Assembly (NCBI GenBank): GCA_016927495.1
Contig: JAFGMP010000236.1
Coordinates: forward strand, 1 to 15,584
Reading direction: 5' to 3'
Length of the DNA: 15,584 nucleotides
Origin: Candidatus Latescibacterota bacterium
GTDB taxonomy: Bacteria > Latescibacterota > Latescibacteria > Latescibacterales > Latescibacteraceae
Below, one piece after another: positions 1,999 to 15,584 of the stretch (positions within the stretch are counted from its first letter, which is position 1; each line of letters begins with the position of its first letter). The notes beneath the pieces were generated by a model. That model saw nothing but the letters and a program-made list of their open reading frames with translations. It did no database searches and was not told where the DNA came from. The translations under genes were made by a program, and so were the position numbers.

Positions 1999-2011
1999 AT
2001 TCTCACACCTT

Positions 2012-2890: not shown

Positions 2891-2929
2891 TACGGCATTC
2901 ACTCCCCAAAATTTAACCGAATAATGAAG

Positions 2930-4190: not shown

Positions 4191-5102
4191 ATGATCGCAG
4201 CAATCGGTATATCGGTACTCGATACGATAATGGTGATGGACGGTTTTAAATCCGCTGAGGGATCGTATCACTGTGAGAAACTTATCATTGAAGGCGGCGG
4301 TATGGCTGCAACCGCCCTTTGTACGGCTTCAAAGCTTGGTTCGCAAACACGTCTGTTTTCAAGGATTGGAAACGATGTATTCGGCAAACGGCTGCTGGAA
4401 GAGCTGAGAGATTTCGGGGTTGACATTTCGGGGACAATAACGCTAAAAAACAGAAATACTACCGCTTCTGTTGTGTTTGTCGATTTAAATACCGGAGAAA
4501 AACAATTTTATTCGGAATGGGATAAATCCGCATACATAGATTCCTGCTCACTTAATGTCAATTTGCTCGAAGGTGTTAAAATCATGCTTGTGGACGGACA
4601 TTGGACAGAAGGAGCATATGAGGGTCTTGTATGGGCCCGCGCACAGGAAATTCCTGTAGTTGCCGATTTTAAAAGAAAGTATAATGGCATCGAAAAATTA
4701 TTTCCCTTCATCGATTATTTCATCATACCGATGTTTTTTGCCGAAGAAATAACCGGAGAAAAAAAAACGGATCGAATGCTTCATAAACTTACCGAGCTGC
4801 AGCCGGGCATCCCGGTTATAACTTGCGGAGTTCAGGGAGGAGCATATATCGTCGAAAATGATATCAAACGTTACAAGGCATTTCCTATAAAAGCAGTTGA
4901 TTCAACAGGAGCGGGTGACGCTTTCCATGGGGCATTTTGCCATTTCATTTCCCATGGTGTAGAACTGTCCCGCTGTCTGGAATTATCTTCTGCTGTTGGC
5001 GCACTCAACTGTCGTGCCCACGGTGGTAGATCTGCTCTTCCGTCACGAGAAGAACTAAAGGTTTTTCTTAAAAATCATAATGTGGATCCGGAATTTCCAT
5101 AA
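4191..5102 (+). CDS. pfkB/ribokinase-family carbohydrate kinase
   Basis: An N-terminal beta-strand plus GG motif (IGISVLDTIMV...EGGGMAATALCTASKLG) and a C-terminal anion-hole/catalytic motif DSTGAGDAFHGAF (DTxGAGD) are diagnostic of the ribokinase/pfkB superfamily. Length is 303 aa. Confidence 0.8.
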   Translation: MIAAIGISVLDTIMVMDGFKSAEGSYHCEKLIIEGGGMAATALCTASKLGSQTRLFSRIGNDVFGKRLLEELRDFGVDISGTITLKNRNTTASVVFVDLNTGEKQFYSEWDKSAYIDSCSLNVNLLEGVKIMLVDGHWTEGAYEGLVWARAQEIPVVADFKRKYNGIEKLFPFIDYFIIPMFFAEEITGEKKTDRMLHKLTELQPGIPVITCGVQGGAYIVENDIKRYKAFPIKAVDSTGAGDAFHGAFCHFISHGVELSRCLELSSAVGALNCRAHGGRSALPSREELKVFLKNHNVDPEFP

Positions 5103-5310: not shown

Positions 5311-5436
5311 ATGGGTAACAGAAAATTGAGAAAAGCTGAAATACGGCAAAGGCGTCAACGACGCGAAAAACGTCAGAAACAGAAAAAAAATGAATTGATT
5401 ATGAAAGCACAGGAAAAAAAAGATAAAAAGGATTGA
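5311..5436 (+). CDS. Small (41 aa) extremely basic Arg/Lys-rich protein, MGNRKLRKAEIRQRRQRREKRQKQKKNELIMKAQEKKDKKD
   Basis: This ORF is not in the six-frame track because it is under 60 aa. GGAGG lies 4 nt upstream of the ATG, a candidate promoter is upstream, and a strong hairpin+T8 terminator lies 76 nt downstream. Composition is about 50% K/R. It may be a ribosome- or nucleic-acid-associated small protein, but it could also be non-coding. Confidence 0.4.
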   Translation: MGNRKLRKAEIRQRRQRREKRQKQKKNELIMKAQEKKDKKD

Positions 5437-5511: not shown

Positions 5512-5545
5512 GAAACCCCGGTTGTATTTGACCGGGGTTTTTTTT
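5512..5545. terminator. Rho-independent terminator hairpin (9-bp GC-rich stem AACCCCGGT/ACCGGGGTT, 8-nt loop) followed by T8 on the plus strand; A-run on the other side allows weaker bidirectional function for the convergent BMC operon
   Basis: Stem 5514-5522 pairs with 5531-5539, loop is tgtatttg, and the T-run is 5538-5545. The site lies between the convergent small ORF (plus) and the aldehyde dehydrogenase gene (minus, ends 5630). On the minus strand the stem is followed only by TTTC. Confidence 0.6.
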
Positions 5546-5629: not shown

Positions 5630-7114
5630 TCAGACAAACCGCAGACTCCCTGCTATCGCCAGACGTCTGATTTTACAGAAATTAATCGGTGATGTGACGC
5701 CCTCACCGGTAGGAGTTGCGATTGTGAAAGCCATATACGCTTCGCCATCATCAGGACCGTCACCCTGATTACTGTAGCCGTTTGCCACCACAATTGTTGT
5801 ATTCATTGCTTTGGCAAAAGTTGTAATACGATCCATGTCTTTCGAATGAATGAGCGCCGTATGTCGATACCCATGTTCTGCTTCCAGACAACACTGTAAA
5901 CCGTCATCGAAATCTTTAACCCTGACAATAGGAAGAAGCGGCATCATCTGTTCTTCTTTTACTAACAGATTATCCTTGTCCGTTTCACCGAAAAGGAGAC
6001 GTGTACCCTCGGGAATGTTTAACTTCACAAGATCGGCAAGATAACTGGTGCTTCTGCCCACCATCTCACGATTAAGTACATGACCGCCTTTTTCGTTTGA
6101 AATAAAAGCTTTTTTGGTCAACAGGTCCATATGAATACTTTCGATTTTTACAGCGCCGGCTTTTTCCATCGCCATCATAAACCTGTCAAAAACGGATTCT
6201 ACAACAAAGACCTCTTTTTCAGCGATACAGAGGAGATTATTATCAAACGAAGCGCCTCTGATAATATCCCGTGCGGCTTTTTCAATATTGGCTGTTTCAT
6301 CGACCAGAACCGGCGGATTTCCGGGACCTGCGGCTATCACCTTTTTATCGGTGGCCATAGCAGCTTTAACAACACCCGGTCCTCCGGTTATCGACAATAA
6401 CGCGACATCAGGATGGTTGAACATGCTATTCGCCGTCTCGATTGTCGGATTCTCCACACAGGTAATAAGGTTTTCCGGAAAACCTCCCGCAACTATAGCT
6501 TTATGGAATATCTGCAGAGCATAGGCGCTTATTTTTTTTGCTCCGGGGTGAGGATTGAAAATTACAGTGTTACCCCCGGCAAGCATAATGATCGCGTTGT
6601 TGACCAACGTGGGAACCGGATGCGTGGACGGAGTTATTGCTCCTATTATCCCGAATGGCGCAAATTCCTCGATCGTGACGCCGGTTTCTCCCGACCATGA
6701 CCGTGAAACAAGATTCTCGGTACCGGGTGAATTTTTTGCGCAGTTTCTGTGTTTTAAAATCTTGTCTCTGATGTTCCCCATGCCGGTTTCTTCGAAAGTC
6801 ATCTTGCTGAATTCTTCTGCATAATCCAAAGTGACCCTGCGCAGGATACCGATGAGACGTTCACGTTCTCTGACACCAAATTTATTAAATTCAAAAAATG
6901 CTCTTTTGGATGCTGCAATTGCATCTTCCATACGGTCGAATACACCATCTTTGCCGCGTAAACCGGCCGATGATGCAACTGGTCTCATGGATTGTGGCGA
7001 TAAAGATGGTGTTACTGCACCCGATCCGGCTTTGGGTAGCGCCGTTCCGGACGTTTTTGCCACCGATGCAACAACAGATTCAACTATGCTTCTGATTTGT
7101 TGTTCGTCAATCAT
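5630..7114 (-). CDS. CoA-acylating aldehyde dehydrogenase (EutE/PduP family) with N-terminal encapsulation peptide
   Basis: The ALDH fold starts at GVFDRMEDAIAASKRAF. The catalytic Cys lies in FDNNLLCIAEKE. A ~55-aa N-terminal extension (amphipathic helix IDEQQIRSIVESVVASV plus an S/P/A/G-rich linker) is typical of BMC-targeted AldDH. AAGAGG lies 8 nt upstream of the ATG. Confidence 0.9.
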   Translation of the reverse strand: MIDEQQIRSIVESVVASVAKTSGTALPKAGSGAVTPSLSPQSMRPVASSAGLRGKDGVFDRMEDAIAASKRAFFEFNKFGVRERERLIGILRRVTLDYAEEFSKMTFEETGMGNIRDKILKHRNCAKNSPGTENLVSRSWSGETGVTIEEFAPFGIIGAITPSTHPVPTLVNNAIIMLAGGNTVIFNPHPGAKKISAYALQIFHKAIVAGGFPENLITCVENPTIETANSMFNHPDVALLSITGGPGVVKAAMATDKKVIAAGPGNPPVLVDETANIEKAARDIIRGASFDNNLLCIAEKEVFVVESVFDRFMMAMEKAGAVKIESIHMDLLTKKAFISNEKGGHVLNREMVGRSTSYLADLVKLNIPEGTRLLFGETDKDNLLVKEEQMMPLLPIVRVKDFDDGLQCCLEAEHGYRHTALIHSKDMDRITTFAKAMNTTIVVANGYSNQGDGPDDGEAYMAFTIATPTGEGVTSPINFCKIRRLAIAGSLRFV

Positions 7115-7140
7115 AATTTAACCTCTTATCACATTCGTAA

Positions 7141-7413
7141 TTACACCATCTGTTCCATGTCTTCATGCGGGCTTGCAATAACCTGTGTGGCAACAACTTC
7201 TCCTACACGGGCTGCGGCTTCGGTTCCGGCCTCAACTGCCGCTTTTACTGCAGCGACATCACCCCTGACCATAACCGCAATATATCCGCTTCCCGTTTTT
7301 TTGTAGCCCTGAAGACTCACCGAAGCGGCTTTGAGCATTGCATCAGCGCCTTCCACTGCGGCTATGAAACCTCTTGTCTCTATAAATCCTAATGCTCTTC
7401 CTGTAACTGCCAT
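7141..7413 (-). CDS. BMC-H hexameric shell protein (Pfam00936, PduA/EutM-like)
   Basis: MAVTGRALGFIETRGFIAAVEGADAMLKAASVSL...GDVAAVKAAVEAG is a canonical single BMC domain. AGGAGG lies 5 nt upstream. Confidence 0.9.
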   Translation of the reverse strand: MAVTGRALGFIETRGFIAAVEGADAMLKAASVSLQGYKKTGSGYIAVMVRGDVAAVKAAVEAGTEAAARVGEVVATQVIASPHEDMEQMV

Positions 7414-7438
7414 TGTATCCTCCTGGTTTCATGACATT

Positions 7439-8218
7439 CTATTGATTGTTGAGTTCCTTCATGATTTTTTCCGTTATTTCCGTGACAATATCTTCGTACT
7501 CCGATTTTGTGCTTAGTTCACAGCTTTCAGTCCCCGTGCATGTACCGCAATTCATGCATGCGCTGCCGCCGATTTTTATACCGAACTGATCACGAATCTC
7601 TTCGAGTTTCTTTACATTTTGCGTGCTGATCTGTTTCATTCCGCCAAGCTGATGAGCTGCCAGAGATATTATGGCAAAATGTTCCACACTCTCCATCTTA
7701 TAATAAGCCTCCATTACGTCTTTACCCAAAGTCATTGCTCCATGATTAGCAAGAAGAATGGCGTCATGACATAGTACCAGATCTTTTATAGAATCGGATA
7801 ATTCCGTTGTGGATGGAGTCCCATATTGGGCCAGCGGAATAGAACCCAGAGAAATTATTATCTCAGGTAATGTTTTAAAATCCAACGGGATATTGGCTAC
7901 CGCATAACCCGTGCAAACCGGCGGATGGGCATGAACAACAGAGCCGATATCATCACGCTGACGATACGCCTCGATATGAATTTTACTTTCGGATGAAGGT
8001 TTCATATACCCGCTCCGAACATTACCGTCCATATCGATCTTCACAAGCATATCAGGTGACATAAAACCTTTCGATACACCGGTTGGCGTGGTTATTATAT
8101 TCGTATCATCGAGTTTCATGCTGATATTACCGTCATTCGAGGCAACCCAACCTTTTAACCAGACACGTCTGCCAACCTCACATATCTGTTCCCGTATTTC
8201 TTTTTCTCGATTATTCAT
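7439..8218 (-). CDS. Class II (AraD/FucA-type, metal-dependent) aldolase with C-terminal Cys cluster and C-terminal encapsulation peptide
   Basis: FucA-like motifs are present: NDGNIS, KPSSES (the catalytic Glu position), HAHPP and ANHG (metal His ligands). The C-terminal ~45 aa read GGSACMNCGTCTGTESCELSTKSEYEDIVTEITEKIMKELNNQ, a CxxCxxCx5C cluster followed by an amphipathic helix. Confidence 0.85.
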   Translation of the reverse strand: MNNREKEIREQICEVGRRVWLKGWVASNDGNISMKLDDTNIITTPTGVSKGFMSPDMLVKIDMDGNVRSGYMKPSSESKIHIEAYRQRDDIGSVVHAHPPVCTGYAVANIPLDFKTLPEIIISLGSIPLAQYGTPSTTELSDSIKDLVLCHDAILLANHGAMTLGKDVMEAYYKMESVEHFAIISLAAHQLGGMKQISTQNVKKLEEIRDQFGIKIGGSACMNCGTCTGTESCELSTKSEYEDIVTEITEKIMKELNNQ

Positions 8219-8291
8219 TGTATTTGTTTCTGGTTTATAGTGTATGATTAATTCTACAGTTTATTTCAACTATTCCTTATTATGAAACTAT

Positions 8292-9479
8292 TTACCGAGT
8301 ATCGCTAACTACTTTTACAGTCTCACGGGCAACAATAATTTCTTCATTCGTATCAAGGACAAGCGCTGCAATCTTCGATCCTTCAGCATCGATACGTTCG
8401 CTGTTAGCCTCATTCGCGCTTTTGTCAAGTTTGAATCCCAGAAATTCCAGTGAAGTGAGGATCTCCGACCGCAGAGCACTGTCTTTCTGACCGGTTCCTC
8501 CGGTAAAACAAACAGCATCTACACCGCCCATGAATAAAATATATGCACCCATATAGAACTTGATATCATAAATAAACTTGTCACGGGCAAGCTGCGCTTG
8601 TTTGCTCCCCTTTCTGATGGCTTCAATTACATCCCTCATATCTCCTGACGTTCCGGAAAGACCCTTGAGTCCACCGTTCGATCCCAGTTCTCTATACGCA
8701 TCTTCAAGACTTATACCTTTTTTCTTCATAATGTACGGAACAATAAACGAATCCATATCACCGACACGTTTGGATTGAATAACACCCGTCTGTGTGCTGA
8801 AACCCATAGATGTATCTATAGCAACTCCGTCTTTAAACGCACATACCGAGGATGATCCCCCGAGGTGACACGCAATAACTTTATGATTTTTCAGATCGAG
8901 TTTCAGAATACGAACAGTTTCTCCGGTAACAAATCTCAATGATGCGCCATGATAGCCGTATTTACGGACACCATATTTTTCAAACCACTCAACTGGAGTG
9001 CCATAAACCTGGGCATATTCCGGCCTGTTAATATGAAATCCCGGTTCGAATACACCCACCAGCGGTTTTTCAGGTAACAGATCTTTAAACATCCTTATCG
9101 CTTCAAGGTATGGAGGATTATGAGCCGGCGCGATGTCGCTGTATTCATCCATTGCCGCAATAACTTTTTTTGTCAACAGTACCGAACCGTTTTGCTCTCC
9201 TGCCTGCACGGTTTTAAATCCTACCGCATCGATTTCTGACAAATCGTTTATAATTTCCGATGTCAGAAATTCGAGCCCCCGCCTGACCGCTTCCTTCTGA
9301 TTAAGTACCGGCTTTTCTTCATCGATGATAATGTCTCCCGAACCACGGTAATAGGTGCCATGCGCATTATCCGATCCTACACGTTCGATATGGACATGTG
9401 CGATAATGCTTTCAGTCTCCATATCGATGAACTGGAATTTGAATGAAGTCGATCCTATATTACAAACTATAACTTTCAT
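8292..9479 (-). CDS. ackA: Acetate/propionate kinase (AckA family)
   Basis: N-terminus MKVIVCNIGSTSFKFQF (the ASKHA fold beta1 / phosphate-1 motif). Length is 395 aa. Internal motifs HLGGSSSVCAF and FTGGTG are typical of acetate kinases. Confidence 0.9.
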   Translation of the reverse strand: MKVIVCNIGSTSFKFQFIDMETESIIAHVHIERVGSDNAHGTYYRGSGDIIIDEEKPVLNQKEAVRRGLEFLTSEIINDLSEIDAVGFKTVQAGEQNGSVLLTKKVIAAMDEYSDIAPAHNPPYLEAIRMFKDLLPEKPLVGVFEPGFHINRPEYAQVYGTPVEWFEKYGVRKYGYHGASLRFVTGETVRILKLDLKNHKVIACHLGGSSSVCAFKDGVAIDTSMGFSTQTGVIQSKRVGDMDSFIVPYIMKKKGISLEDAYRELGSNGGLKGLSGTSGDMRDVIEAIRKGSKQAQLARDKFIYDIKFYMGAYILFMGGVDAVCFTGGTGQKDSALRSEILTSLEFLGFKLDKSANEANSERIDAEGSKIAALVLDTNEEIIVARETVKVVSDTR

Positions 9480-9553
9480 CGCAGTTCAAAGTTTTAAGTT
9501 CAAGAATCAAAGTTCAGGGTTCGATGTACAAAACTAAAGTCAAACCATTTATA

Positions 9554-9820
9554 TCACATTGCCACATCATCAATAATAGCCAGAATATTAGCGTCGGAAC
9601 CGGTCATATCAGGGTGAAATGCCATTGCCGATTCCGGACCACCTTCATACAGGACAATCTGGCCTTCTCCGCATCCTATATAATCAAAAGTGATTATCAG
9701 GTTACCTGGTTTTTTTATATCACGGATATCTATTTCTTCCATTACCCTGAGCTTTTTGCCCGCAAGCGCAGGAAGCGTTTTGTTCAATACCAAATTACCG
9801 CGTACTTTGCCGGTTTCCAT
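9554..9820 (-). CDS. BMC-P pentameric vertex protein (EutN/PduN/CcmL family), paralog 3
   Basis: METGKVRGNLVLNKTLPALAGKKLRVM...IGCGEGQIVLYEGG matches the BMC-P fold pattern. Length is 88 aa. Confidence 0.8.
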   Translation of the reverse strand: METGKVRGNLVLNKTLPALAGKKLRVMEEIDIRDIKKPGNLIITFDYIGCGEGQIVLYEGGPESAMAFHPDMTGSDANILAIIDDVAM

Positions 9821-9886
9821 CTATTATTAACCATTCACGTTTCATTCTTATTGAAATCATCGGTACTCAAAAAATAAAGTACTTAA

Positions 9887-10621
9887 CTATATGCCGGTGA
9901 AACCTGAAATTATTGCTTCGGGATTCGATATCGATCCAAGCACAATCACATTAGCGCCTATATCGATCCTTGCGGCACGGGCATCATACGTGTCTCTGCA
10001 GTGGACGGCACGAACAGCGCTGTTTCTGTTTGCATGAATCGGAGCCTCCATTCCCGTGTTTTCAAGACAGACTCCGAAATGAGCGCCGCCTGAAACTACC
10101 ATATCCGCAAGCTTTTTTACATTTGCTTCATACGACCCGCCGGTAATTTCTTTTATCGTCAAATGTTTTGCTGCAAGAATATTCTTCAAAATTGAACCAT
10201 CACCCTTAAAATCCGGAGCAATAACGAGCGCAACAGAAATGGTACCCTGTATTGAAGAAACATTCCCAGATTTATTACCTGCTGCACCATCAATACGGTT
10301 GATAGTTATTTTCTTTTCTTTGGCAAAATCCAGCGCCAATGGCGTTATAACAGCCTTTTTTGTTATGGTGACGGTTTGCCCTTTTACTGCTTCGAGATCT
10401 TTCTGAGTAATAACCTGTTTCCCCGACATATCAGCGTTACCCGCTGCAGGTGCTTCAACAGGCAGTGTCGGACGAATCGATACCTGAGCCGGAACAGGTG
10501 ATTGTTGTGCCGGAGCTTGACTGCCGCTTGTTTCGGCAGACGAACTTACCGGAATACCCCGCTGGTTAAGAACTCTTTTTACTTCTGTAATAATCGCTTC
10601 GACAAGTTCATCGTGATTCAT
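9887..10621 (-). CDS. Encapsulation-peptide-tagged RpiB/LacAB-family sugar-phosphate isomerase-like protein (EP + linker + small unassigned module + RpiB-like domain)
   Basis: The N-terminus MNHDELVEAIITEVKRVL is an amphipathic helix, followed by a ~45-aa S/A/P/Q-rich linker. The middle module reads VITQKDLEAVKGQTVTITKKAVITPLALDFAKEKKITI. The C-terminal ~115 aa align to the RpiB core: GVCLENTGMEAPIHANRNSAVRAVHCRDTYDARAARIDIGANVIVLG versus RpiB [47 protein letters not shown]. Glu sits at the catalytic Cys/Glu position. The N-terminal GSDHAG motif has diverged to APDFKG. Confidence 0.6.
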   Translation of the reverse strand: MNHDELVEAIITEVKRVLNQRGIPVSSSAETSGSQAPAQQSPVPAQVSIRPTLPVEAPAAGNADMSGKQVITQKDLEAVKGQTVTITKKAVITPLALDFAKEKKITINRIDGAAGNKSGNVSSIQGTISVALVIAPDFKGDGSILKNILAAKHLTIKEITGGSYEANVKKLADMVVSGGAHFGVCLENTGMEAPIHANRNSAVRAVHCRDTYDARAARIDIGANVIVLGSISNPEAIISGFTGI

Positions 10622-10645
10622 GGTAAACCTACTTGATTATGTAAA

Positions 10646-10903
10646 TTAACGCTCAACTATATCATCTATAATTCCGCATAACCATGCTCTTTGAGGAACA
10701 ATGGGATCATTATGCATTTCCTGCGATCCTATACCATCCCAATTGAGAATAACTCTGTCACCTTTACCTGATGCGGTAAAATCAACCACAACCTGCGGCC
10801 TGCCCTGGGGCTGTCCCTTTGCATCAAGTACCTGAACAATCATTAGCTTTTTCCCATTAAGGCAGGGATGTTTGATTGTAGAAGTAACACTTCCAAGTAC
10901 CAT
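10646..10903 (-). CDS. BMC-P pentameric vertex protein (EutN/PduN/CcmL family), paralog 2
   Basis: MVLGSVTSTIKHPCLNGKKLMIVQVLD...ASGKGDRVILNWDG matches the BMC-P pattern. The ORF track begins at an in-frame TTG at 10921 (MRLREG-). The ATG at 10903 gives the canonical M-x-x-G-x-V-x-S-T N-terminus. The true start is ambiguous. Confidence 0.75.
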   Translation of the reverse strand: MVLGSVTSTIKHPCLNGKKLMIVQVLDAKGQPQGRPQVVVDFTASGKGDRVILNWDGIGSQEMHNDPIVPQRAWLCGIIDDIVER

Positions 10904-11034
10904 TCCCTCTCTCAACCGCAAACCTCATACTAAAAAATTAAACCATAAAATTCGTTACCTGTTTCATTTCGAAAACAACTTGTAATGTATCTCTTCTGTA
11001 ATAACTTGTATTCATCCTGTCTGCAATCAAATAT

Positions 11035-11583
11035 TTATACGAGATGCGGTATCAGTTCCGGATTCACCGACGGAATAACCACCGAAGCAATGAGCACTCC
11101 TCTGTCTTTAACTCCTTCAAGCGCAGCATCCATTGCCGACTGGACATTCTGGACAGAACCGGTAACGATCACATATGATTTTCCGGCAAGTCCCTTACCG
11201 AGCCTGAGTTCGATTATTTCCACATCGGAGGTTTTCACCATCGTATCGGCGCCCTCGATTGTTGCCGTCATCGTCATCGTTTCAAAAACACCGATTGAAG
11301 CGCCGATATTAACAATATCAGGACTGTAAAACGCCGAAAGAACTTTGTCATCGATACGAGGCAAAATGAGCGAGTCCAGAAAATTGAAATCGGCAATTCC
11401 CTTTGCAAGATCAATCGCTTCCCGGACAGCTCCGACATCTCCTGTAAATAATATCTGATAACGCCCGGGACAGTTTGGAGCGGAAAGCAAAATATCAATC
11501 GCCGTATTTTTGGAAATAAGATCGGCGGCCTGTATACCTTTTCCGACACTTATATATTCGAGAAAACCAATACATTTACTCAT
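11035..11583 (-). CDS. BMC-T tandem-domain shell protein, PduT-like with conserved pore cysteine (putative [4Fe-4S] site)
   Basis: Two BMC domains (IGFLEYISVGKGIQAADLISKNTAIDIL and IGVFETMTMTATIEGADTMVKTSDVEIIEL) sit in 182 aa. LLSAPNCPGRYQILFTGDVGAVREAI aligns with Salmonella PduT [27 protein letters not shown], including Cys38. The start overlaps the PduS stop as ATGA. Confidence 0.85.
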   Translation of the reverse strand: MSKCIGFLEYISVGKGIQAADLISKNTAIDILLSAPNCPGRYQILFTGDVGAVREAIDLAKGIADFNFLDSLILPRIDDKVLSAFYSPDIVNIGASIGVFETMTMTATIEGADTMVKTSDVEIIELRLGKGLAGKSYVIVTGSVQNVQSAMDAALEGVKDRGVLIASVVIPSVNPELIPHLV

Positions 11584-12956
11584 GAACCGGCACCCCTGAT
11601 TACAATATATTCATTCGTAACTTCTTCTACATGGCCATGTATTGATGCATGTACTCGCGCCCCCATTCCATTTTCAGGAATTTCACCGATCAGATCACCG
11701 GTTTTTACACTCTCCCCCTGTTTTACCACCGGTTTTGCCGGAGCACCTATATGCTGAAGAAGCGGGATACGCACCTTTCCGGGTATGAACGAACCAAGTG
11801 GTTCGAATTCTGTGTGTCCGAGATACCGTTCGAGGCCAAGTTTACGGGCATATGTTAAAGCCGGAAGTTTTCGATAATTAAACATTGCACCATCATACTG
11901 AGGCATCTTTGAAAAATCATACTTCAATCCCGACCGTTTTATAGCATCGCGAACCATAGCATATACTTTGTTGGGAGCCAGGCCGAAAATGCATGCGTAT
12001 TGTTCACAAACACCACACTGGCAGCACAAAATTGATTCGAATACCATCTGTTTTGTGAATTCATCGAGGTCATGCGCTTCAATTTTCCTTATAATCTCAT
12101 CGACAAACCATGAGTATGACATCATTTTTGCCGGTGAAATGGCATGGCCTATAGCGTTTCTCGGGCAAAGTATAGTACATTCCTGACAGGTGCAGCACAT
12201 TTTTGCCCGCTGTTTCGTAATACGGACAGGTTCTTTTTTTAATCGAACCATCGTGTGGTCTTTCGGCAATACTATTACACCCCCAAATCGCTTATCGATA
12301 ACATCGTCCGTATCACCGATCGGCCCCATTATAGGTCCGCCCAAAATGATCTCGTAATCAGTTACAGTTACTCCGCCCGCAAATGCTATAAGGTCTTTTA
12401 CAGGCGTTCCTATCGGAACCTCAACGGTAACCGGACGGGCTACTTCCCCACCGATGGTAACATTTCGTGAAGTAACGACCTTACCGTCAAGCGCATCGGA
12501 AATCTGCTTGAATGTAGCCACATTGCTAACCGTCACACCAATCATAAAAGGCAAACCGCCCTGTGGCACCGTCTTTCCGGTCACATCACGGATCAGGACA
12601 AGCTCATCGCCTGCGGGATAAGAATTTTCGAGAATACCGATTTCGAATTCCGGTTTACCTGATATTACCTGAGAAACAGCATCGATGGCAGCGGTATTTT
12701 TATTTTTGATACCGATGATTCCCTTTCGGGCGCCAACCTGTTCCATCGCCGCTTCCATACCGCGTATGAAACTGCCGGGATTTTTTTCCATGAGATGTTT
12801 ATCGGCTTCGAGAATAGGTTCACATTCGGCGCCGTTAGCAATAACGGTGTCGACAGCATTTCCCAATTTAACATGAGTGGGAAATCCCGCACCGCCAGCC
12901 CCTACTATTCCGGCATCACGAACAATTGAAACAATATCGACGGCAGTCCGGCTCAC
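11580..12956 (-). CDS. PduS-like (RnfC/NuoF-like) NAD(H)- and FMN-binding iron-sulfur oxidoreductase
   Basis: N-terminus MSRTAVDIVSIVRDAGIVGAGGAGFPTHVKL closely matches PduS (GVVGAGGAGFPAHVKL). Two ferredoxin-like Cys clusters are present: CCTCQECTILCP and CCQCGVCEQYAC. The gene starts at GTG and overlaps the upstream BMC-P stop as GTGA. Confidence 0.85.
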   Translation of the reverse strand: MSRTAVDIVSIVRDAGIVGAGGAGFPTHVKLGNAVDTVIANGAECEPILEADKHLMEKNPGSFIRGMEAAMEQVGARKGIIGIKNKNTAAIDAVSQVISGKPEFEIGILENSYPAGDELVLIRDVTGKTVPQGGLPFMIGVTVSNVATFKQISDALDGKVVTSRNVTIGGEVARPVTVEVPIGTPVKDLIAFAGGVTVTDYEIILGGPIMGPIGDTDDVIDKRFGGVIVLPKDHTMVRLKKEPVRITKQRAKMCCTCQECTILCPRNAIGHAISPAKMMSYSWFVDEIIRKIEAHDLDEFTKQMVFESILCCQCGVCEQYACIFGLAPNKVYAMVRDAIKRSGLKYDFSKMPQYDGAMFNYRKLPALTYARKLGLERYLGHTEFEPLGSFIPGKVRIPLLQHIGAPAKPVVKQGESVKTGDLIGEIPENGMGARVHASIHGHVEEVTNEYIVIRGAGS

Positions 12957-13273
12957 TCTTTCTCACCTTTCCGATACACAAAATTGGTGTCAACCGACAC
13001 TGAATCGACAATCCCGATTATCAGACCATCCGTAGGTATACTCGCCGTTGTATCTGTCATACGGGCGGAAGATCCCTGTACGACAAGCACCAATTCACCC
13101 CGTCCGGCGCCAATCGGATCGTTTACTATCAGTGTGGTTCCGGTCGGCAGAATTTTACTGCCTTTAGGATCATTTGTAATATTCTGAACCTCGATAAGTA
13201 GAAACTTCTGCCCGATCAGTCGGTCAATCTTCACTGACGACACTATTTCACCGATAACTTTACCGACTACCAC
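12953..13273 (-). CDS. BMC-P pentameric vertex protein (EutN/PduN/CcmL family), paralog 1
   Basis: VVGKVIGEIVSS...GSSARM...DGLIIGIVDSVSVDTNFVYRK aligns with CcmL/EutN, including the C-terminal DTVSRDNYLLYSK-like segment. GTG start, with GAGGT 8 nt upstream. Confidence 0.85.
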   Translation of the reverse strand: MVVGKVIGEIVSSVKIDRLIGQKFLLIEVQNITNDPKGSKILPTGTTLIVNDPIGAGRGELVLVVQGSSARMTDTTASIPTDGLIIGIVDSVSVDTNFVYRKGEKE

Positions 13274-13430
13274 AAGTCAACCTCATTTTTCATTTTGTAT
13301 ACTTGTTGTAAGTAAATTTTTTTACATCAGACAAATACATTGTCCAAAACTAATAACCATGGTAAATCAAATATCTTCGATTCTTATTCTTTAAACACAG
13401 ATTCATCCTTGAATCATGTGCTTAAATCGG

Positions 13431-13793
13431 TTACACTCCGGGGCTTTTCTTCTGATCACCCGCAGGTGAAGCTTTTGTCGTTTTCGGTTTGGGAGCATTT
13501 GCCTTTTCTGCCGGTTTTTCTGCCTCCACGATGCCGATAAAAGCTTCCATTTCCTTATGAGGGCTCGCTATAACCTGAGCAGCAACGACCTTGCCAATAG
13601 CCGCGGCAGAACCTGCGCCTGCATCGACAGCAGCTTTTACTGCCGCCACATCTCCGGTCAGAATGATCATAACAAGTCCACTGCCTGCACGCATCTGAGT
13701 CAGAAGGGAAACATTGGCCGCTTTCAGAGCCGAATCGGCAGCCTCCACCGCGGCAACAAATCCCTGTGTCTCAATGAAACCCAAAGCTTGCAT
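13431..13793 (-). CDS. BMC-H shell protein with ~35-aa Lys/Pro/Ala-rich C-terminal extension
   Basis: The BMC domain is MQALGFIETQGFVAAVEAADSALKAANVSL...GDVAAVKAAVDAG. The tail reads EAEKPAEKANAPKPKTTKASPAGDQKKSPGV. AGGAG lies 6 nt upstream. Confidence 0.85.
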   Translation of the reverse strand: MQALGFIETQGFVAAVEAADSALKAANVSLLTQMRAGSGLVMIILTGDVAAVKAAVDAGAGSAAAIGKVVAAQVIASPHKEMEAFIGIVEAEKPAEKANAPKPKTTKASPAGDQKKSPGV

Positions 13794-13908
13794 GTGTATC
13801 TCCTATGTAATAAGTATCATAATTCCTGAATCATAAAAAGTTTTACCCGAATTTTATTCTTATATTTCACAATCCAGTCTTAATAGCGTTCAGCCAATTC
13901 AGATGCTT

Positions 13909-14175
13909 TTATTTGAAAAGTCCATCCAGTTCTTCATGAGGACGCGGAATAATGTGCGATGAAATGAACTCTCCTACATTTTTCGCCACTTCAGTGCCGG
14001 ATTCCACGGCTGCTTTGACCGAACCTACGTCGCCGGTGATAACTGTGGTTACAAAACCACCACCGATGCCAACCTGTTTGAGCAGTTCAACGCTGGCGCT
14101 CTTCAACATCGCATCGGTTGCAATTGCGAGTCCTGTGAATCCTCTTGTTTCAAGAAGTCCTATTGCTTTTCTCAT
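13909..14175 (-). CDS. BMC-H hexameric shell protein
   Basis: MRKAIGLLETRGFTGLAIATDAMLKSASVELL...GDVGSVKAAVESG is a canonical BMC domain. GGAGG lies 10 nt upstream. Confidence 0.9.
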   Translation of the reverse strand: MRKAIGLLETRGFTGLAIATDAMLKSASVELLKQVGIGGGFVTTVITGDVGSVKAAVESGTEVAKNVGEFISSHIIPRPHEELDGLFK

Positions 14176-14216
14176 TGTAGTGAAACCTCCATGTGTTGTG
14201 TGGTTACAGTATTAAA

Positions 14217-14945
14217 TTAATCTTTTATTATCTCGACATCTTTGCCGCAGCCAATATCCGCGACATTTCCCTCGTCCGTATCAAGATGTACTTCGAGCCG
14301 TACATTATCGGATACCCGCACCACCATATTTTCAAACGTTACCGCATTAGGCCCTCCAACCCTGAGCTTAACTTTATCTCCATTTTTCAGCCCGAAATAT
14401 GCTGCCTCTTTTGGATTCATGTGAACATGCCTCATGGCACGGATACAACCCTCGTCAAGTTCGACAACACCTTTTGGGCCAATTATTGTTATAGGCGCAG
14501 AACCCTTTATATCACCGGAAATTCTTAATGGTGCATCGATACCTAGAAAAATAGCATCAGTTTTGGCCAGTTCAACCTGAGTTCTATCTCTCAAAGGCCC
14601 GAGAATCCTTACTTTTTCAAGAAGCCTCGTTTTGGGTCCGATTAGCGCCACTGTCTGTTTCTCAGCATGAGTGCCGGGTTGATATAATTCCCGTAAATGA
14701 TCGAGTTCAGCACCGGGACCGAATAGTTTTTCAAGATGTTCTTTGCAGAGATGTACATGACGAACCGAAACTCCAACCGGTATTCTTTTCGGATTAATCG
14801 AATCATATACAACATTTTCCGTTTCTTTTTTTTCCGGTTCTTTTGATGGTACCGTTAGGTTAATTCGTTCAAATACTTCCCGAACAATCCGATTGAGTAT
14901 ATCCTGGTCAATCGAAGGTGTCCGGCTTACATTTGTGTTATTCAT
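14217..14945 (-). CDS. pduL: PduL-type phosphotransacylase (Pfam06130) with N-terminal encapsulation peptide
   Basis: Two PduL repeats with His-rich metal sites are present (IPVGVSVRHVHL and IRAMRHVHMN). The N-terminal amphipathic helix DQDILNRIVREVFERI plus a linker precedes the catalytic domain, as in encapsulated PduL. Confidence 0.85.
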   Translation of the reverse strand: MNNTNVSRTPSIDQDILNRIVREVFERINLTVPSKEPEKKETENVVYDSINPKRIPVGVSVRHVHLCKEHLEKLFGPGAELDHLRELYQPGTHAEKQTVALIGPKTRLLEKVRILGPLRDRTQVELAKTDAIFLGIDAPLRISGDIKGSAPITIIGPKGVVELDEGCIRAMRHVHMNPKEAAYFGLKNGDKVKLRVGGPNAVTFENMVVRVSDNVRLEVHLDTDEGNVADIGCGKDVEIIKD

Positions 14946-15255
14946 ACTTTCTAACCTTTGAATTGAGCGAGATAGTATTTCATGATTTATCGAAAATATG
15001 CTCTACAGTGAAATAATCCACTTGAAATTCTCGTGAGTTTTCTGTCGAATTACTTAACCAATGTCTAATATATGGTATTGCCTGAAATTTTACAATAAAT
15101 AAGGATGCAAAAATTTAAAAAAATATAACTATATTTACTGGACAGAGATAAAGAAAGAGTCTATTATATACAAAACGCAATGGGAAATTACTCTTGCAGT
15201 AAAATTAATTTGTATTATTATATATAATGTTATTCTACTATAATGGGTGCAAAAT
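14946..15255. promoter_or_regulatory. AT-rich divergent intergenic region upstream of the BMC operon (minus) and of a secreted-protein gene (plus); probable operon promoter/regulatory region; TATAAT at 15223-15228 on plus strand
   Basis: The 310-nt non-coding spacer is more than 70% AT. It lies directly upstream of the first BMC gene (pduL). No specific operator was recognised. Confidence 0.25.
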
Positions 15256-15584
15256 ATGAGACATGTGCGTAAAAAAATTATTAAAATTACTTTCAGCAGG
15301 GTTTTATTTAACATATTCATACTTTTTTTTACATTTTTTTTCCTGGCTGAAAAGTCAGTCGCTCAACAGGATACAATCAGCATATTTGAACTGACCGGCA
15401 ACAATACAGATATATTCTCAAAAGAATGGAATCATATTCTGCCGGAAAATCAAAAGGCATATACAAACTATACCATCGAAAAAAATAATAATGAATTATA
15501 TCTTAAACTACGTTCCGGCGGTACCGGTTCACTGCTTGAAAAAAAAGTCGACAACATCAATGTCGCAAAATTTCCCATAATGGA
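15256..15584 (+). CDS. Partial CDS (5' end), secreted/exported protein with N-terminal signal peptide; continues beyond window
   Basis: ATG at 15256. The open frame runs to the window end with no stop. MRHVRKKIIKITFSRVLFNIFILFFTFFFLAEKSVAQQ has a Lys-rich n-region, a hydrophobic core and an AxA-like cleavage site. It is absent from the ORF track because it is incomplete. Confidence 0.45.
   Translation, partial: MRHVRKKIIKITFSRVLFNIFILFFTFFFLAEKSVAQQDTISIFELTGNNTDIFSKEWNHILPENQKAYTNYTIEKNNNELYLKLRSGGTGSLLEKKVDNINVAKFPIM

What the first reader, a model, noticed from the sequence alone, without database searches (positions are those of the whole stretch)
5630..14945. Complete 13-gene aldolase-type bacterial microcompartment operon (PVM/SPU-like) lacking any B12, glycyl-radical or lyase signature enzyme
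All parts of a metabolosome are present in one minus-strand operon.

- **Shell:** three BMC-H (one with a tail), one PduT-like BMC-T and three BMC-P.
- **Aldehyde core:** AldDH, PduL and AckA.
- **Signature enzyme:** the only candidate is an AraD/FucA-type class II aldolase, partnered with an EP-tagged RpiB-like domain.

Known aldolase BMCs are of two kinds. The PVM type (Planctomycetes/Verrucomicrobia; fucose/rhamnose to lactaldehyde) uses a class II aldolase. The SPU type uses DeoC together with RpiB. This locus mixes features of both and adds PduS/PduT, so it may be an unclassified or rare variant. The substrate is unknown; candidates are 6-deoxyhexulose-1-P, 5-deoxy-pentulose-1-P and other ketose phosphates.

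Gene order and overlaps (ATGA/GTGA) indicate a single transcription unit.
Basis: partly seen in the sequence, partly recalled or inferred. Interest (0 to 1): 0.8.

Follow-up and report, generated by a model that had tools for sequence, protein, structure and literature searches.

The report
Latescibacterial aldolase-type microcompartment operon
This is a real, complete 13-gene operon for a protein-shelled bacterial organelle that most likely breaks down fucose- or rhamnose-type sugars, but the same locus type was already catalogued in this phylum in 2014, so it is another uncharacterised member rather than a new kind.

Summary
Thirteen co-directional minus-strand genes (5630-14945) encode three BMC-H, one PduT-type BMC-T, three BMC-P, PduS, PduL, a CoA-acylating aldehyde dehydrogenase, an acetate/propionate kinase, a class II aldolase and an RpiB-like protein. 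No B12, glycyl-radical or EutBC enzyme occurs in the window or within about 10 kb in eight syntenic relatives.

The window is an entire contig of a Candidatus Latescibacteria MAG. Its enzyme set equals the "SPU-like" locus that Axen et al. (2014) described from two Latescibacteria single-cell genomes. It also nearly equals type MIC4 of Sutter et al. (2021). So it is catalogued, but never characterised by experiment.

The closest aldolase and AldDH relatives outside the phylum lie in BMC loci next to fucose isomerase, RhaM, FGGY kinase, lactate racemase and an FAD-linked oxidase (D-lactate dehydrogenase-type domains). This favours fuculose/rhamnulose-1-P to DHAP plus lactaldehyde, then lactyl-CoA, lactyl-P and lactate plus ATP. 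PduS/PduT probably dispose of NADH electrons.

The RpiB-like protein keeps the fold but lacks the catalytic Cys and His and the C-terminal phosphate site. By analogy with the inactive SPU RPI, it is probably a packaging partner.

A conserved CxxCGxC motif sits ahead of the aldolase encapsulation helix. It is unexplained, and my text searches found no discussion of it.

The parts
15067..15095 (-). Candidate sigma-70-like promoter (TTGTAA-17-TATATT) in the 310-bp AT-rich gap upstream of pduL. Tentative.
   Evidence: Consensus scan. The block is nearly identical in the closest relative L011 and partly conserved in L003 and L006. Not tested functionally.
14217..14945 (-). PduL-type phosphotransacylase with an N-terminal encapsulation peptide (DILNRIVREVFERI) and linker
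   Evidence: PF06130, E 9e-69. NF011652, 241 bits against a cutoff of 209. Hydrophobic moment 0.77; 1% of shuffles reach it.
13909..14175 (-). BMC-H shell hexamer protein (88 aa; K25 and PRPH motifs)
   Evidence: PF00936, E 1.5e-25. 85-92% identical in the syntenic loci.
13431..13793 (-). BMC-H with a Lys/Pro/Ala-rich C-terminal tail of about 35 aa
   Evidence: PF00936, E 7.5e-24, matching residues 3-78 of 120. Tail sequence read.
12953..13273 (-). BMC-P pentamer protein 1
   Evidence: PF03319, E 3e-22. Its stop overlaps the PduS GTG start (GTGA).
11580..12956 (-). PduS-like flavin/Fe-S oxidoreductase (GAGGAGFP motif; two Cys clusters at residues 254-264 and 311-322)
   Evidence: Complex1_51K (E 8e-46), SLBB, Fer4_17 and RnfC_N. 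Cys positions.
11035..11583 (-). PduT-type tandem-domain BMC-T with the pore motif C38-P-G-R-Y
   Evidence: Two BMC domains, E 1.5e-36. TIGR02526 match below its cutoff. The motif fits C-P/S/A-G-K/R/S-Y/F as given in PMC6325248. ATGA overlap with pduS.
10646..10921 (-). BMC-P pentamer protein 2
   Evidence: PF03319, E 8e-18. 26-29% identical to the other two BMC-P proteins.
9887..10621 (-). RpiB-like protein. It has an N-terminal EP helix (3-20), a disordered P/A/S linker (27-60), a small alpha/beta module with a VITxxDL...AVITPLAxD motif (62-110), and a truncated RpiB-fold domain (129-242).
   Evidence: PF02502, partial match, E 1.5e-11. Below every NCBIfam RpiB cutoff. AlphaFold2 model. Foldseek matches to RpiB structures with TM 0.6-0.8 relative to the target. 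The E. coli catalytic residues are replaced: Cys66 by Glu187 and His99 by Asp220. The C-terminal helix carrying Arg133, His134 and Arg137 in E. coli RpiB is missing; those residue roles are from my own recollection of E. coli RpiB, whereas the absence of the conserved GGRHxxR segment is seen directly.
9554..9820 (-). BMC-P pentamer protein 3
   Evidence: PF03319, E 9e-16.
8292..9479 (-). Acetate/propionate-family kinase with no encapsulation peptide
   Evidence: PF00871, E 1e-93. TIGR00016, 318 bits against a cutoff of 293. No amphipathic N-terminus.
7439..8218 (-). Class II (FucA/AraD superfamily) aldolase, the candidate signature enzyme. It carries a CxxCGxC motif (C221, C224, C227) and a C-terminal EP helix (238-257).
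   Evidence: PF00596, E 4.5e-45. Zn ligands H96, H98 and H159, Glu77 and the phosphate-site residues are invariant. AlphaFold2 model: domain 1-211 confident, 216-237 disordered, helix 238-257. The Cys motif is present in 80 of 81 full-length close homologs.
7141..7413 (-). BMC-H shell hexamer protein (90 aa)
   Evidence: PF00936, E 8e-27.
5630..7114 (-). CoA-acylating aldehyde dehydrogenase (EutE/PduP type) with an N-terminal EP (QQIRSIVESVVASV) and a linker of about 35 aa. The catalytic Cys296 sits in NLLCIAEKE.
   Evidence: PF00171. NF011927, 583 bits against a cutoff of 403. Sequence read.
5512..5541 (.). Hairpin with a 13-bp stem between the convergent operon and the PfkB / small-ORF unit. 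It has an A-tract on one side and a T-tract on the other, so it is probably a bidirectional terminator.
4191..5102 (+). PfkB-family sugar kinase of undefined specificity, a conserved convergent neighbour. Whether it belongs to the system is uncertain.
   Evidence: PF00294, E 5e-37. Below every NCBIfam cutoff. Present next to the operon in six of seven genome loci and in L011. The unrelated pilin genes beyond it are equally syntenic, so linkage may only reflect vertical synteny.

Best explanation
The operon builds a catabolic bacterial microcompartment of the aldolase type. This is the Latescibacteria "SPU-like" locus, functionally akin to PVM, MIC4 and MUF3.

**Proposed route**
1. Outside the shell, L-fucose or L-rhamnose is isomerised and phosphorylated by enzymes encoded elsewhere. 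(Inferred.)
2. The ketose-1-phosphate enters the shell. The Zn-dependent class II aldolase, targeted by its C-terminal helix, cleaves it to DHAP and L-lactaldehyde. (Inferred.)
3. The EP-tagged CoA-acylating AldDH oxidises lactaldehyde to lactyl-CoA, producing NADH.
4. EP-tagged PduL converts lactyl-CoA to lactyl-phosphate and recycles CoA inside the shell.
5. The untagged acetate-family kinase makes lactate plus ATP.
6. No alcohol dehydrogenase is encoded. NAD+ is therefore probably regenerated by PduS (FMN and two Fe-S clusters), which passes electrons to the Fe-S cluster in the PduT pore and out of the shell.
7. The RpiB-like protein is most likely a catalytically altered or dead packaging partner, not a ribose-5-phosphate isomerase.

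**Shown here:** gene content, motifs, folds, synteny and taxonomic origin.
**Inferred:** substrate, product, electron route and the scaffold role.
For: **Gene content**
- Complete shell plus core gene set, each gene with a strong family match.

**Encapsulation peptides**
- Amphipathic terminal helices followed by linkers on PduL, AldDH and the RpiB-like protein (N-terminal), and on the aldolase (C-terminal).
- This matches the published EP pattern (PMC4594438).

**Aldolase active site**
- The Zn ligands, catalytic Glu and DHAP-phosphate site are invariant across Latescibacteria and Firmicutes homologs.

**Substrate evidence from context**
- In Neomoorella glycerini, the 53%-identical aldolase sits in a BMC locus flanked by RhaM, L-fucose isomerase, an FGGY kinase and a sugar ABC transporter. 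It carries the same CxxCGxC motif and EP.
- About 50%-identical AldDH proteins lie in MIC4-type loci of KSB1 and an unnamed bacterium. Both loci carry the aldolase, AckA, the lactate racemase LarA and an FGGY kinase. The KSB1 locus also carries an FAD-linked oxidase and L-fucose isomerase.
- Those loci contain no other FucA. This aldolase clade must therefore supply that step, and lactate is the implied product.

**Literature**
- PVM biochemistry gives the same route through lactyl-CoA, lactyl-P and lactate (PMC8857213; PMC4207490).
- Latescibacteria genomes are reported to encode fucose/rhamnose-to-lactaldehyde pathways and fucosidases, and to lack a propanediol dehydratase (PMC4454575).
- PduS oxidises NADH, and the PduT cluster (+99 mV) has been proposed as an electron exit (PMC6325248).

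**PduS/PduT in the window**
- The PduT pore Cys motif and both PduS Cys clusters are present.

**RpiB-like protein**
- SPU RPI also has an EP and lacks Cys66. It showed negligible isomerase activity and forms a complex with the signature aldolase (PMC11585597).
- The protein here is more degenerate still.

**Conservation**
- Identical 13-gene order in seven Latescibacterota species genomes and in one close metagenomic contig.
Against: - No fucose or rhamnose isomerase, FGGY kinase, LarA, transporter or regulator lies within about 10 kb of the operon in any of the Latescibacteria loci.
- The only neighbouring sugar kinase is a PfkB enzyme, which is not the usual fuculokinase family.
- The aldolase reaches no NCBIfam equivalog cutoff. 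Its best scores are to the OtnC decarboxylase model (129 bits against a cutoff of 250). Its best PDB sequence hits, in order, are 6vop, an entry annotated only as "Aldolase" that I could not identify with the tools; then 6btd, which I believe from memory is the 5-deoxyribulose-1-P aldolase; and FucA scores lower.
- By my own manual alignment to an E. coli FucA sequence recalled from memory, Tyr113 and Phe131 correspond to Glu119 and Pro135. In the alignments these same two positions carry Tyr and Phe in the 6btd (Bacillus) homolog.
- The RpiB-like domain has many invariant polar residues (E187, N198-R199-N200, H207, R209, R215, R218, D220). This is more than a pure scaffold would seem to need.
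- Nothing here has been tested by experiment.
Confidence: 0.6

Rival explanations
1. The shell and core chemistry are the same, but the substrate is a different ketose phosphate. Candidates are 5-deoxyribulose-1-P or ribulose-1-P from nucleoside or SAM by-product salvage, or another rare sugar. The neighbouring PfkB kinase phosphorylates it. The RpiB-like protein is an active isomerase that uses Glu187 as its base, and the aldolase releases acetaldehyde or glycolaldehyde. The acetate kinase would then make acetate or glycolate.
For: - The PfkB kinase is retained next to the operon in seven of eight related loci.
- The aldolase scores similarly against FucA and ribulose-1-P aldolase family models. 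It also matches PDB entry 6btd, which I believe from memory is the 5-deoxyribulose-1-P aldolase. None of these reaches a cutoff.
- The kinase weakly resembles ribokinase and ribose-1-P kinase models.
- The RpiB-like domain has an invariant Glu at the catalytic Cys position. Mycobacterial RpiB is known to use a Glu base, although at a different position (PMC11585597).
- One relative (L002) has a PF01791 aldolase plus a Zn-ADH inserted in the operon, which hints at sugar-phosphate plasticity.
Against: - The pilin genes beyond the kinase are just as syntenic, so linkage of the kinase is weak evidence. One locus (L003) lacks it.
- The RpiB-like domain lacks His99 and the C-terminal phosphate-binding helix.
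- Its better-preserved SPU relatives are already inactive on R5P.
- The nearest aldolase and AldDH relatives outside the phylum sit in fucose and lactate gene contexts.
Confidence: 0.25
2. The aldolase-family protein is not an aldolase. It is a decarboxylase or epimerase (OtnC- or AraD-like). The aldehyde handled by the compartment would then come from an enzyme encoded elsewhere, with this operon supplying only the shell and core.
For: - The best NCBIfam hit is 3-oxo-tetronate-4-P decarboxylase.
- The best PDB sequence hits are 6vop and 6voq, annotated only as "Aldolase". I suspect from memory, but could not confirm, that they belong to the OtnC family.
- Glu119 replaces the Tyr used by FucA.
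Against: - The score is half the family cutoff (129 against 250).
- The protein carries an encapsulation helix, as BMC signature aldolases do.
- In the Neomoorella and KSB1 loci, homologs with the same active-site residues are the only possible partner for the adjacent fucose isomerase and FGGY kinase.
- No alternative signature enzyme lies within 10 kb in eight loci.
Confidence: 0.06
3. The compartment is really a propanediol-type organelle. Lactaldehyde is reduced to 1,2-propanediol, and a B12- or glycyl-radical dehydratase encoded in a satellite locus makes propionaldehyde. This is the model drawn for Latescibacteria by Youssef et al. 2015.
For: - That paper's model.
- PduS is historically linked to cobalamin recycling.
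- The kinase is of the acetate/propionate family.
Against: - No dehydratase, activase, reactivase or lactaldehyde reductase occurs in the window or in any related locus.
- Youssef et al. themselves found no propanediol dehydratase in the genomes.
- PduS/PduT occur widely in B12-independent loci.
Confidence: 0.05

Closest known systems
"SPU-like" BMC locus of candidate phylum Latescibacteria (Axen, Erbilgin & Kerfeld 2014, PMC4207490)
   Same: The phylum is the same. [quoted passage not shown]
   Different: Nothing substantive could be found. The 2014 description rests on two fragmentary single-cell genomes and gives no gene order, residue analysis or function. I could not retrieve those two loci themselves to compare gene order.
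MIC4 locus type (Sutter et al. 2021, PMC8217296 Supplementary Data 2). Examples fetched here: KSB1 locus L013 and locus L014.
   Same: - AldDH with an N-terminal EP, PTAC, a pfam00596 aldolase with a C-terminal EP, and a pfam00871 kinase.
- Three or more BMC-P genes, one to three BMC-H genes, and a PduS plus Cys-pore PduT pair.
- AldDH about 50% and aldolase about 49% identical to the window proteins.
   Different: - The gene order differs and there are four BMC-P genes.
- A SorC regulator, LarA and an FGGY kinase are attached in both examples. An FAD-linked oxidase and FucI are attached only in the KSB1 locus.
- There is no RpiB-like gene. A protein of about 100 aa with an EP and an ITP-type motif sits in the locus instead; its homology to the N-terminal half of the RpiB-like protein is not significant.
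- The aldolase lacks the CxxCGxC motif.
- Latescibacteria are not among the listed MIC4 taxa.
PVM microcompartment of Planctomycetes and Verrucomicrobia (Erbilgin et al. 2014; experimentally characterised)
   Same: A class II aldolase signature enzyme with a C-terminal EP, AldDH, PduL, an acetate kinase and a BMC-P triplet. The chemistry proposed is also the same: fuculose/rhamnulose-1-P to lactaldehyde, then lactyl-CoA, lactyl-P and lactate.
   Different: - The PVM shell has only BMC-H and BMC-P, with no BMC-T and no PduS.
- PVM has a DeoR regulator and an LDH/MDH-like dehydrogenase, both absent here.
- PVM is restricted to two other phyla.
- PVM has no RpiB-like protein.
SPU microcompartments (SPU1-7; Commun Biol 2024, PMC11585597)
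   Same: - An EP-tagged RpiB-family protein that lacks the catalytic Cys.
- A BMC-P triplet and a frequent PduS/PduT pair.
- AldDH with or without PTAC.
   Different: - The defining DERA (pfam01791) is absent; a class II aldolase replaces it.
- SPU RPIs have Asp at the Cys66 position and keep His99 and the C-terminal GGRHxxR segment.
- The protein here has Glu and Asp at those two positions and is truncated.
MUF3-type loci of Clostridia and Thermoanaerobacterales (e.g. Neomoorella glycerini, L008)
   Same: These hold the closest aldolase relatives outside the phylum (about 50-53% identity), with the same CxxCGxC motif and C-terminal EP. AldDH, PTAC and PduS/PduT are present.
   Different: - A single BMC-P gene.
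- No RpiB-like gene.
- No kinase of the acetate family in the fetched example.
- Embedded in fucose-utilisation genes.

Membership tests
SPU-like locus (Axen 2014) | AldDH, PduL-type PTAC and PduS are encoded together with shell genes | tested here: met
   Pfam and NCBIfam hits above their cutoffs for AldDH and PduL. PduS shows the four-domain architecture.
SPU-like locus (Axen 2014) | An RpiB-like protein is present | tested here: met
   PF02502, 44.9 bits against a cutoff of 24.7. RpiB fold confirmed by Foldseek.
SPU-like locus (Axen 2014) | A class II (pfam00596) aldolase takes the place of the DeoC aldolase | tested here: met
   PF00596, E 4.5e-45. No PF01791 gene in the window.
SPU-like locus (Axen 2014) | An acetate-kinase homolog is in the locus | tested here: met
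   PF00871, E 1e-93. TIGR00016 above its cutoff.
SPU-like locus (Axen 2014) | Found in candidate phylum Latescibacteria | tested here: met
   The window proteins are 100% identical to NCBI records named Candidatus Latescibacteria bacterium, on a contig of 15584 bp. Four of the seven syntenic genome loci are titled Latescibacterota; the other three are titled "uncultured bacterium".
MIC4 (Sutter 2021) | AldDh with an N-terminal EP, plus PTAC, a pfam00596 aldolase and a pfam00871 kinase | tested here: met
MIC4 (Sutter 2021) | [quoted passage not shown] | tested here: inconclusive
   Three BMC-P paralogs are only 26-32% identical to each other. Clade colours need the authors' HMMs, which are not available here.
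MIC4 (Sutter 2021) | A PduS homolog next to a PduT-type BMC-T with a pore cysteine | tested here: met
   The genes are adjacent and overlapping. The C38-P-G-R-Y motif is present.
MIC4 (Sutter 2021) | Same gene order and composition as MIC4 representatives, and a listed taxon | tested here: not met
   The KSB1 locus L013 and locus L014 have a different gene order, four BMC-P genes and no RpiB-like gene. Latescibacteria are not listed for MIC4.
PVM | A shell of BMC-H and a BMC-P triplet only, with no BMC-T or PduS | tested here: not met
   PduT and PduS are present. PVM description.
PVM | Restricted to Planctomycetes and Verrucomicrobia, with a DeoR regulator and an LDH/MDH-like dehydrogenase in the locus | tested here: not met
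   The source is Latescibacteria. Neither gene is present in the window or its relatives.
PVM | A class II aldolase signature enzyme with a C-terminal EP | tested here: met
SPU (SPU1-7) | A DERA (pfam01791) signature enzyme | tested here: not met
   No PF01791 gene in the window. Only relative L002 carries an inserted LsrF/DhnA-type PF01791 gene, which has no EP.
RpiB ribose-5-phosphate isomerase (enzyme family, for the 244-aa protein) | The catalytic residues (E. coli Cys66 and His99-Asn100) and the C-terminal Arg/His phosphate site | tested here: not met
   The protein has Glu187, Asp220 and Ile221 at these positions, and the chain ends before the C-terminal helix. All NCBIfam RpiB and LacAB scores are below their cutoffs.
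RpiB ribose-5-phosphate isomerase (enzyme family, for the 244-aa protein) | The RpiB alpha/beta fold | tested here: met
   AlphaFold2 pLDDT is about 90 for residues 129-242. Foldseek probability 1.0 to E. coli, T. maritima and trypanosomal RpiB.
L-fuculose-1-phosphate aldolase (FucA) family | Three His zinc ligands, the catalytic Glu, and the DHAP phosphate-binding residues | tested here: met
   H96, H98, H159, E77, N28-N31, T44-G47 and S75 are invariant in the alignment and align with FucA structures.
L-fuculose-1-phosphate aldolase (FucA) family | An equivalog-level sequence match, and the Tyr113/Phe131 aldehyde pocket | tested here: not met
   The best FucA model scores 103-107 bits against cutoffs of 250-264. 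The pocket positions are Glu119 and Pro135, by manual alignment to an E. coli FucA sequence recalled from memory; in the alignments the 6btd homolog carries Tyr and Phe at these two positions. Activity was not testable.

The most novel reading that the evidence does not exclude
The strictly conserved C221-x2-C224-G-x-C227 segment lies between the aldolase domain and its encapsulation helix. It may bind an Fe-S cluster or another metal. If so, the signature enzyme, or its packaging, would be redox- or oxygen-responsive and might couple to the PduS/PduT electron relay.

A related possibility is that the Glu/Asp-substituted RpiB-like protein is a new isomerase or ligand sensor acting with the aldolase, rather than a dead scaffold. 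Either case would be a new functional element in aldolase-type microcompartments.
Probability: 0.15. Interest if true: 0.6.

Novelty: new member of a known kind. Interest (0 to 1): 0.3.

Why it matters
Aldolase-type microcompartments drive the breakdown of fucose- and rhamnose-rich algal and plant polysaccharides. Only the PVM type has been studied experimentally.

This window adds a clean, complete and widely conserved Latescibacteria example. That phylum has no cultured representatives, and it is thought to degrade algal detritus in anoxic sediments.

The operon is compact at 9.3 kb with 13 genes, which makes it a tractable target for heterologous reconstruction.

Three sub-features could be tested directly:
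- **PduS/PduT.** It appears to be the sole NAD+ recycling route, because no alcohol dehydrogenase is encoded.
- **The RpiB pseudo-enzyme.** It is degenerate and carries an encapsulation peptide.
- **The aldolase cysteine motif.** It is conserved and unexplained.

None of this changes the classification, so the value is incremental.

Tried and rejected
- **Rfam scan of the whole window.** No RNA family hit, so no riboswitch or other regulatory RNA was found.
- **Search for hidden signature enzymes.** All ORFs of at least 70 aa in the window and the flanks of the related Latescibacteria loci were examined. No GRE, activase, diol dehydratase or EutBC was found.
- **tblastn against the Latescibacteria loci.** FucI, FGGY kinase, LarA, FAD-linked oxidase, RhaM and SorC from the KSB1 and Neomoorella loci gave no hits. 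Substrate genes are therefore not linked to the operon in this phylum.
- **Substrate from sequence alone.** NCBIfam and PDB sequence searches could not discriminate between FucA, the 6btd entry (which I believe from memory is the 5-deoxyribulose-1-P aldolase), ribulose-1-P aldolase, OtnC and AraD. All scores fall far below family cutoffs.
- **Homology between the MIC4 100-aa protein and the RpiB-like N-terminus.** BLASTP gave E 0.62. A profile scored 8-9 bits, no better than the best of 4000 shuffles. I left this as inconclusive.
- **One further look-up failed.** The Acididesulfobacillus aldolase P0182 was not on record.
- **P0166 locus.** It is a reduced DeoR-aldolase-shell-PTAC locus with no informative sugar genes.
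- **Literature on the aldolase cysteine motif.** Two text searches returned nothing that discusses it. One review table shows Cys enrichment in aldolase linkers without comment.

Full report

Yes. ORF listing shows 13 consecutive minus-strand ORFs between 14945 and 5630. Pfam assigns every one:

| Gene | Coordinates | Pfam result |
|---|---|---|
| PduL-type phosphotransacylase | 14217-14945 | E 9e-69 |
| BMC-H | 13909-14175 | BMC domain |
| BMC-H with a Lys/Pro/Ala-rich tail | 13431-13793 | BMC domain |
| BMC-H | 7141-7413 | BMC domain |
| BMC-P (three genes) | 12953-13273, 10646-10921, 9554-9820 | EutN/CcmL |
| PduS-like protein | 11580-12956 | Complex1_51K, SLBB, Fer4 and RnfC_N domains |
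| Tandem-domain BMC-T | 11035-11583 | two BMC domains |
| RpiB-like protein | 9887-10621 | partial LacAB_rpiB match |
| Acetate kinase | 8292-9479 | E 1e-93 |
| Class II aldolase | 7439-8218 | E 4.5e-45 |
| Aldehyde dehydrogenase | 5630-7114 | Aldedh |

NCBIfam refines three of these. The dehydrogenase is of the EutE/PduP CoA-acylating type (583 bits against a cutoff of 403). PduL and the kinase also pass their family cutoffs.

Other points checked:
- The GTGA and ATGA overlaps exist. Other gaps are 24-157 nt.
- A 13-bp-stem hairpin at 5512-5541 closes the unit.
- A promoter-like TTGTAA-17-TATATT site (15095-15067) lies in a block conserved with the nearest relative.
- No B12, glycyl-radical or EutBC gene is present. 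The flanks hold a PfkB kinase (4191-5102, + strand), pilin-like genes (16-3822) and the first 109 codons of a DUF3047 secreted protein (15256-15584, + strand).

**2. Where does it come from, and how conserved is it?**

The RpiB-like protein, the aldolase and the AldDH are each 100% identical to NCBI proteins of a Candidatus Latescibacteria MAG. Those proteins sit on a contig of exactly 15584 bp, so the window is a whole contig.

I scanned one genome per GTDB species with a profile of the RpiB-like protein. This returned seven loci. Four are titled Latescibacterota and three "uncultured bacterium". tblastn shows the same 13 genes in the same order in every one. Amino-acid identity is 63-92%, except for the RpiB-like protein at 43-53%.

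A 51.5-kb metagenomic contig (L011) is closer still. It extends the upstream flank to DUF3047, a MacB-type transporter and a GH31 glycosidase. There is no regulator and no radical enzyme.

The PfkB kinase is retained convergently downstream in seven of eight loci. However, the unrelated pilin genes beyond it are retained as well. That linkage may therefore be plain vertical synteny.

**3. Anatomy relevant to mechanism**

*Encapsulation peptides.*
[quoted passage not shown] The kinase has none.
- AlphaFold2 models support two of these:
  - RpiB-like protein: helix 3-20, then a disordered stretch 27-60.
  - Aldolase: confident domain 1-211, disordered 216-237, helix 238-257.
- This is the published EP pattern, including the C-terminal position on class II aldolases (PMC4594438).

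*Aldolase.*
- It retains the three His zinc ligands (H96, H98, H159), the catalytic Glu77 and the DHAP-phosphate site. All are invariant across homologs.

*AldDH.*
- It has the catalytic Cys in NLLCIAEKE.

*PduS and PduT.*
- PduS has the GAGGAGFP motif and two cysteine clusters.
- PduT has C38-P-G-R-Y. This matches the Fe-S pore motif given in PMC6325248.

*RpiB-like protein.*
- It keeps the RpiB fold (Foldseek probability 1.0).
- Glu187 occupies the position of the catalytic Cys66, and Asp220 that of His99.
- The chain ends before the C-terminal segment that, from my recollection of E. coli RpiB, carries the phosphate-binding Arg/His residues. The absence of the conserved GGRHxxR segment is seen directly.
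- It falls below every NCBIfam RpiB cutoff.
- An exhaustive profile search shows a small core family: 9 representatives below E 1e-30. This sits inside a much larger set of proteins with the architecture EP, motif, RpiB domain: 990 representatives below E 1e-3. Many members of the larger set have Asp at the Cys position but keep His99 and the C-terminal site.

**4. What it most likely does**

Sequence alone does not fix the aldolase substrate. All equivalog models (OtnC, FucA, ribulose-1-P aldolase, AraD) score at half their cutoffs or less. The PDB sequence hits rank as follows. First are 6vop and 6voq, annotated only as "Aldolase"; I suspect from memory that they are OtnC-family. Next is 6btd, which I believe from memory is the 5-deoxyribulose-1-P aldolase. 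After that come pneumococcal and E. coli FucA, within a narrow band.

Genomic context of the nearest relatives outside the phylum is more informative:
- **Neomoorella glycerini.** The 53%-identical aldolase has the same Cys motif and EP. It lies in a BMC locus immediately after RhaM and L-fucose isomerase. A sugar ABC transporter lies upstream and an FGGY kinase downstream.
- **MIC4-type loci.** AldDH proteins about 50% identical occur in the loci of a KSB1 bacterium and an unnamed bacterium. Both carry the aldolase, the acetate kinase, the lactate racemase LarA and an FGGY kinase. The KSB1 locus adds an FAD-linked oxidase and L-fucose isomerase.

In those loci this aldolase clade is the only possible fuculose-1-P aldolase, and lactate is the implied product. 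The active-site residues are shared with the window protein.

Three literature points fit:
- The PVM pathway runs through lactyl-CoA, lactyl-phosphate and lactate (PMC8857213).
- Latescibacteria genomes are reported to encode fucose and rhamnose catabolism to lactaldehyde.
- The same report found that these genomes lack a propanediol dehydratase (PMC4454575).

The best model is therefore a fuculose/rhamnulose-1-P microcompartment. With no alcohol dehydrogenase encoded, PduS/PduT is the probable NADH electron outlet. That is a published hypothesis, not a demonstration.

For the RpiB-like protein, the best analogy is the SPU RPI. That protein is EP-tagged, lacks Cys66, is essentially inactive on ribose-5-phosphate, and forms a roughly 1:1 complex with the signature aldolase. 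Its authors interpret it as a packaging factor (PMC11585597).

I give this overall model about 0.6. The main reservations are:
- No fucose genes are linked to the operon in this phylum.
- The neighbouring kinase is a PfkB enzyme.
- The RpiB-like domain has many invariant polar residues.

**5. Comparison with known types**

- **SPU-like (Axen et al. [quoted passage not shown] Every feature is met here, including the phylum.
- **MIC4 (Sutter et al. 2021).** Lists the same enzymes, a BMC-P triplet and PduS with a Cys-pore PduT. The two MIC4-like loci I fetched differ in gene order. They have four BMC-P genes and lack the RpiB-like gene. Latescibacteria are not listed for MIC4. In that catalogue's tree file, a Latescibacteria PduT is marked as coming from a fragmented, omitted locus.
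- **PVM.** It fails on shell composition (no BMC-T or PduS), taxon and accessory genes.
- **SPU.** It fails on the defining DERA.

But that mix is exactly the reason the type was named in 2014, so the locus is not unclassified.

**6. Novelty and verdict**

This is a further, well-preserved member of a catalogued but experimentally untouched locus type. I rate it a new member of a known kind, with interest about 0.3.

Two details may be new:
- **The aldolase Cys motif.** A CxxCGxC motif lies between the aldolase domain and its EP. It is present in 80 of 81 close homologs and in most Firmicutes relatives. It is absent from the KSB1 enzyme. My text searches found no discussion of it, although a review table shows cysteine enrichment in aldolase linkers.
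- **The degenerate RpiB-like protein.** It is more degenerate than the SPU RPIs but still strongly conserved.

Either could conceal a redox or regulatory function. I estimate that at about 0.15.

Noticed in passing
window 7439-8218 (-), aldolase residues 221-233: A conserved C-x2-C-G-x-C motif lies in the otherwise disordered linker between the aldolase domain and its C-terminal encapsulation helix; the window protein has a fourth Cys at 233. The motif is present in 80 of 81 full-length Latescibacteria-type homologs and in most Moorella/Peptococcaceae homologs. It is absent from the KSB1 MIC4 aldolase and from a stand-alone paralog in a single-cell genome. It may be a metal or Fe-S site. My text searches found no discussion of it.
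   Followed up: partly
window 5311-5436 (+): A 41-codon ORF encodes a very basic peptide (MGNRKLRKAEIRQRRQRREKRQKQKKNELIMKAQEKKDKKD). It has a GGAGG ribosome-binding site and lies between the PfkB gene and the terminator hairpin. A 41-aa gene is called at the same place in the closest relative, L011.
   Followed up: partly
window 15256-15584 (+): The contig end cuts a gene for a signal-peptide DUF3047 protein that diverges from the operon. A comparable divergent gene of about 250 aa with a signal peptide lies upstream of pduL in L003, L004, L006, L007 and L011; only the L011 copy was checked against Pfam (DUF3047). Its function and any link to the compartment are unknown.
   Followed up: partly
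window 16-3822 (-): A cluster of four pilin or pseudopilin-like genes with N-terminal methylation motifs includes a 660-aa PilX_N protein. Most or all of the four genes are syntenic with the BMC operon in the five Latescibacteria genome loci whose contigs extend that far and in L011 (L003 and L004 lack one or two of the neighbours). This shows that the whole neighbourhood is vertically conserved.
   Followed up: partly
L002 5092-6931: In one relative (SAG AM-311-I19), two genes are inserted between ackA and the aldolase. One is an LsrF/DhnA-type class I aldolase (PF01791; NF006081, 354 bits, above its cutoff) with no encapsulation peptide. The other is a Zn-dependent alcohol dehydrogenase. This is a pfam01791 gene inside an otherwise SPU-like operon.
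   Followed up: partly
L013 9073-9378 and L014 4805-5101: MIC4-type loci encode a protein of about 100 aa, with no Pfam match, made of an EP-like helix, a linker and a "...ILTENHI...TIITPKAREL..." segment. It resembles the N-terminal half of the window's RpiB-like protein, and the weakly matching C-termini of PF15953 (PDU_like) and TIGR02536 (eut_hyp). The similarity is not statistically significant (8-9 bits).
   Followed up: yes
L013 14623-21428 and L014 12726-15600: Both MIC4-type loci carry the lactate racemase LarA and an FGGY kinase directly after the aldolase and acetate kinase. The KSB1 locus also carries an FAD-linked oxidase (D-lactate dehydrogenase-type domains) and L-fucose isomerase. 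This implies a route from fucose through lactate towards pyruvate.
   Followed up: no
L008 1-9966: The Neomoorella glycerini BMC locus is preceded by three URO-D-family (PF01208) genes. They are interleaved with RhaM, fucose isomerase and a sugar ABC transporter. They may act on methylated deoxy-sugars.
   Followed up: no
Proteins P0204-P0343: A large family of 200-280-aa proteins has an EP, an ITxxDL...TPLAxD motif and an RpiB domain. The catalytic Cys is replaced by Asp, or less often Glu. Many members retain His99 and the C-terminal GGRHxxR segment. The structured motif module ahead of the RpiB domain is not mentioned in the passages of the SPU paper that I read.
   Followed up: partly
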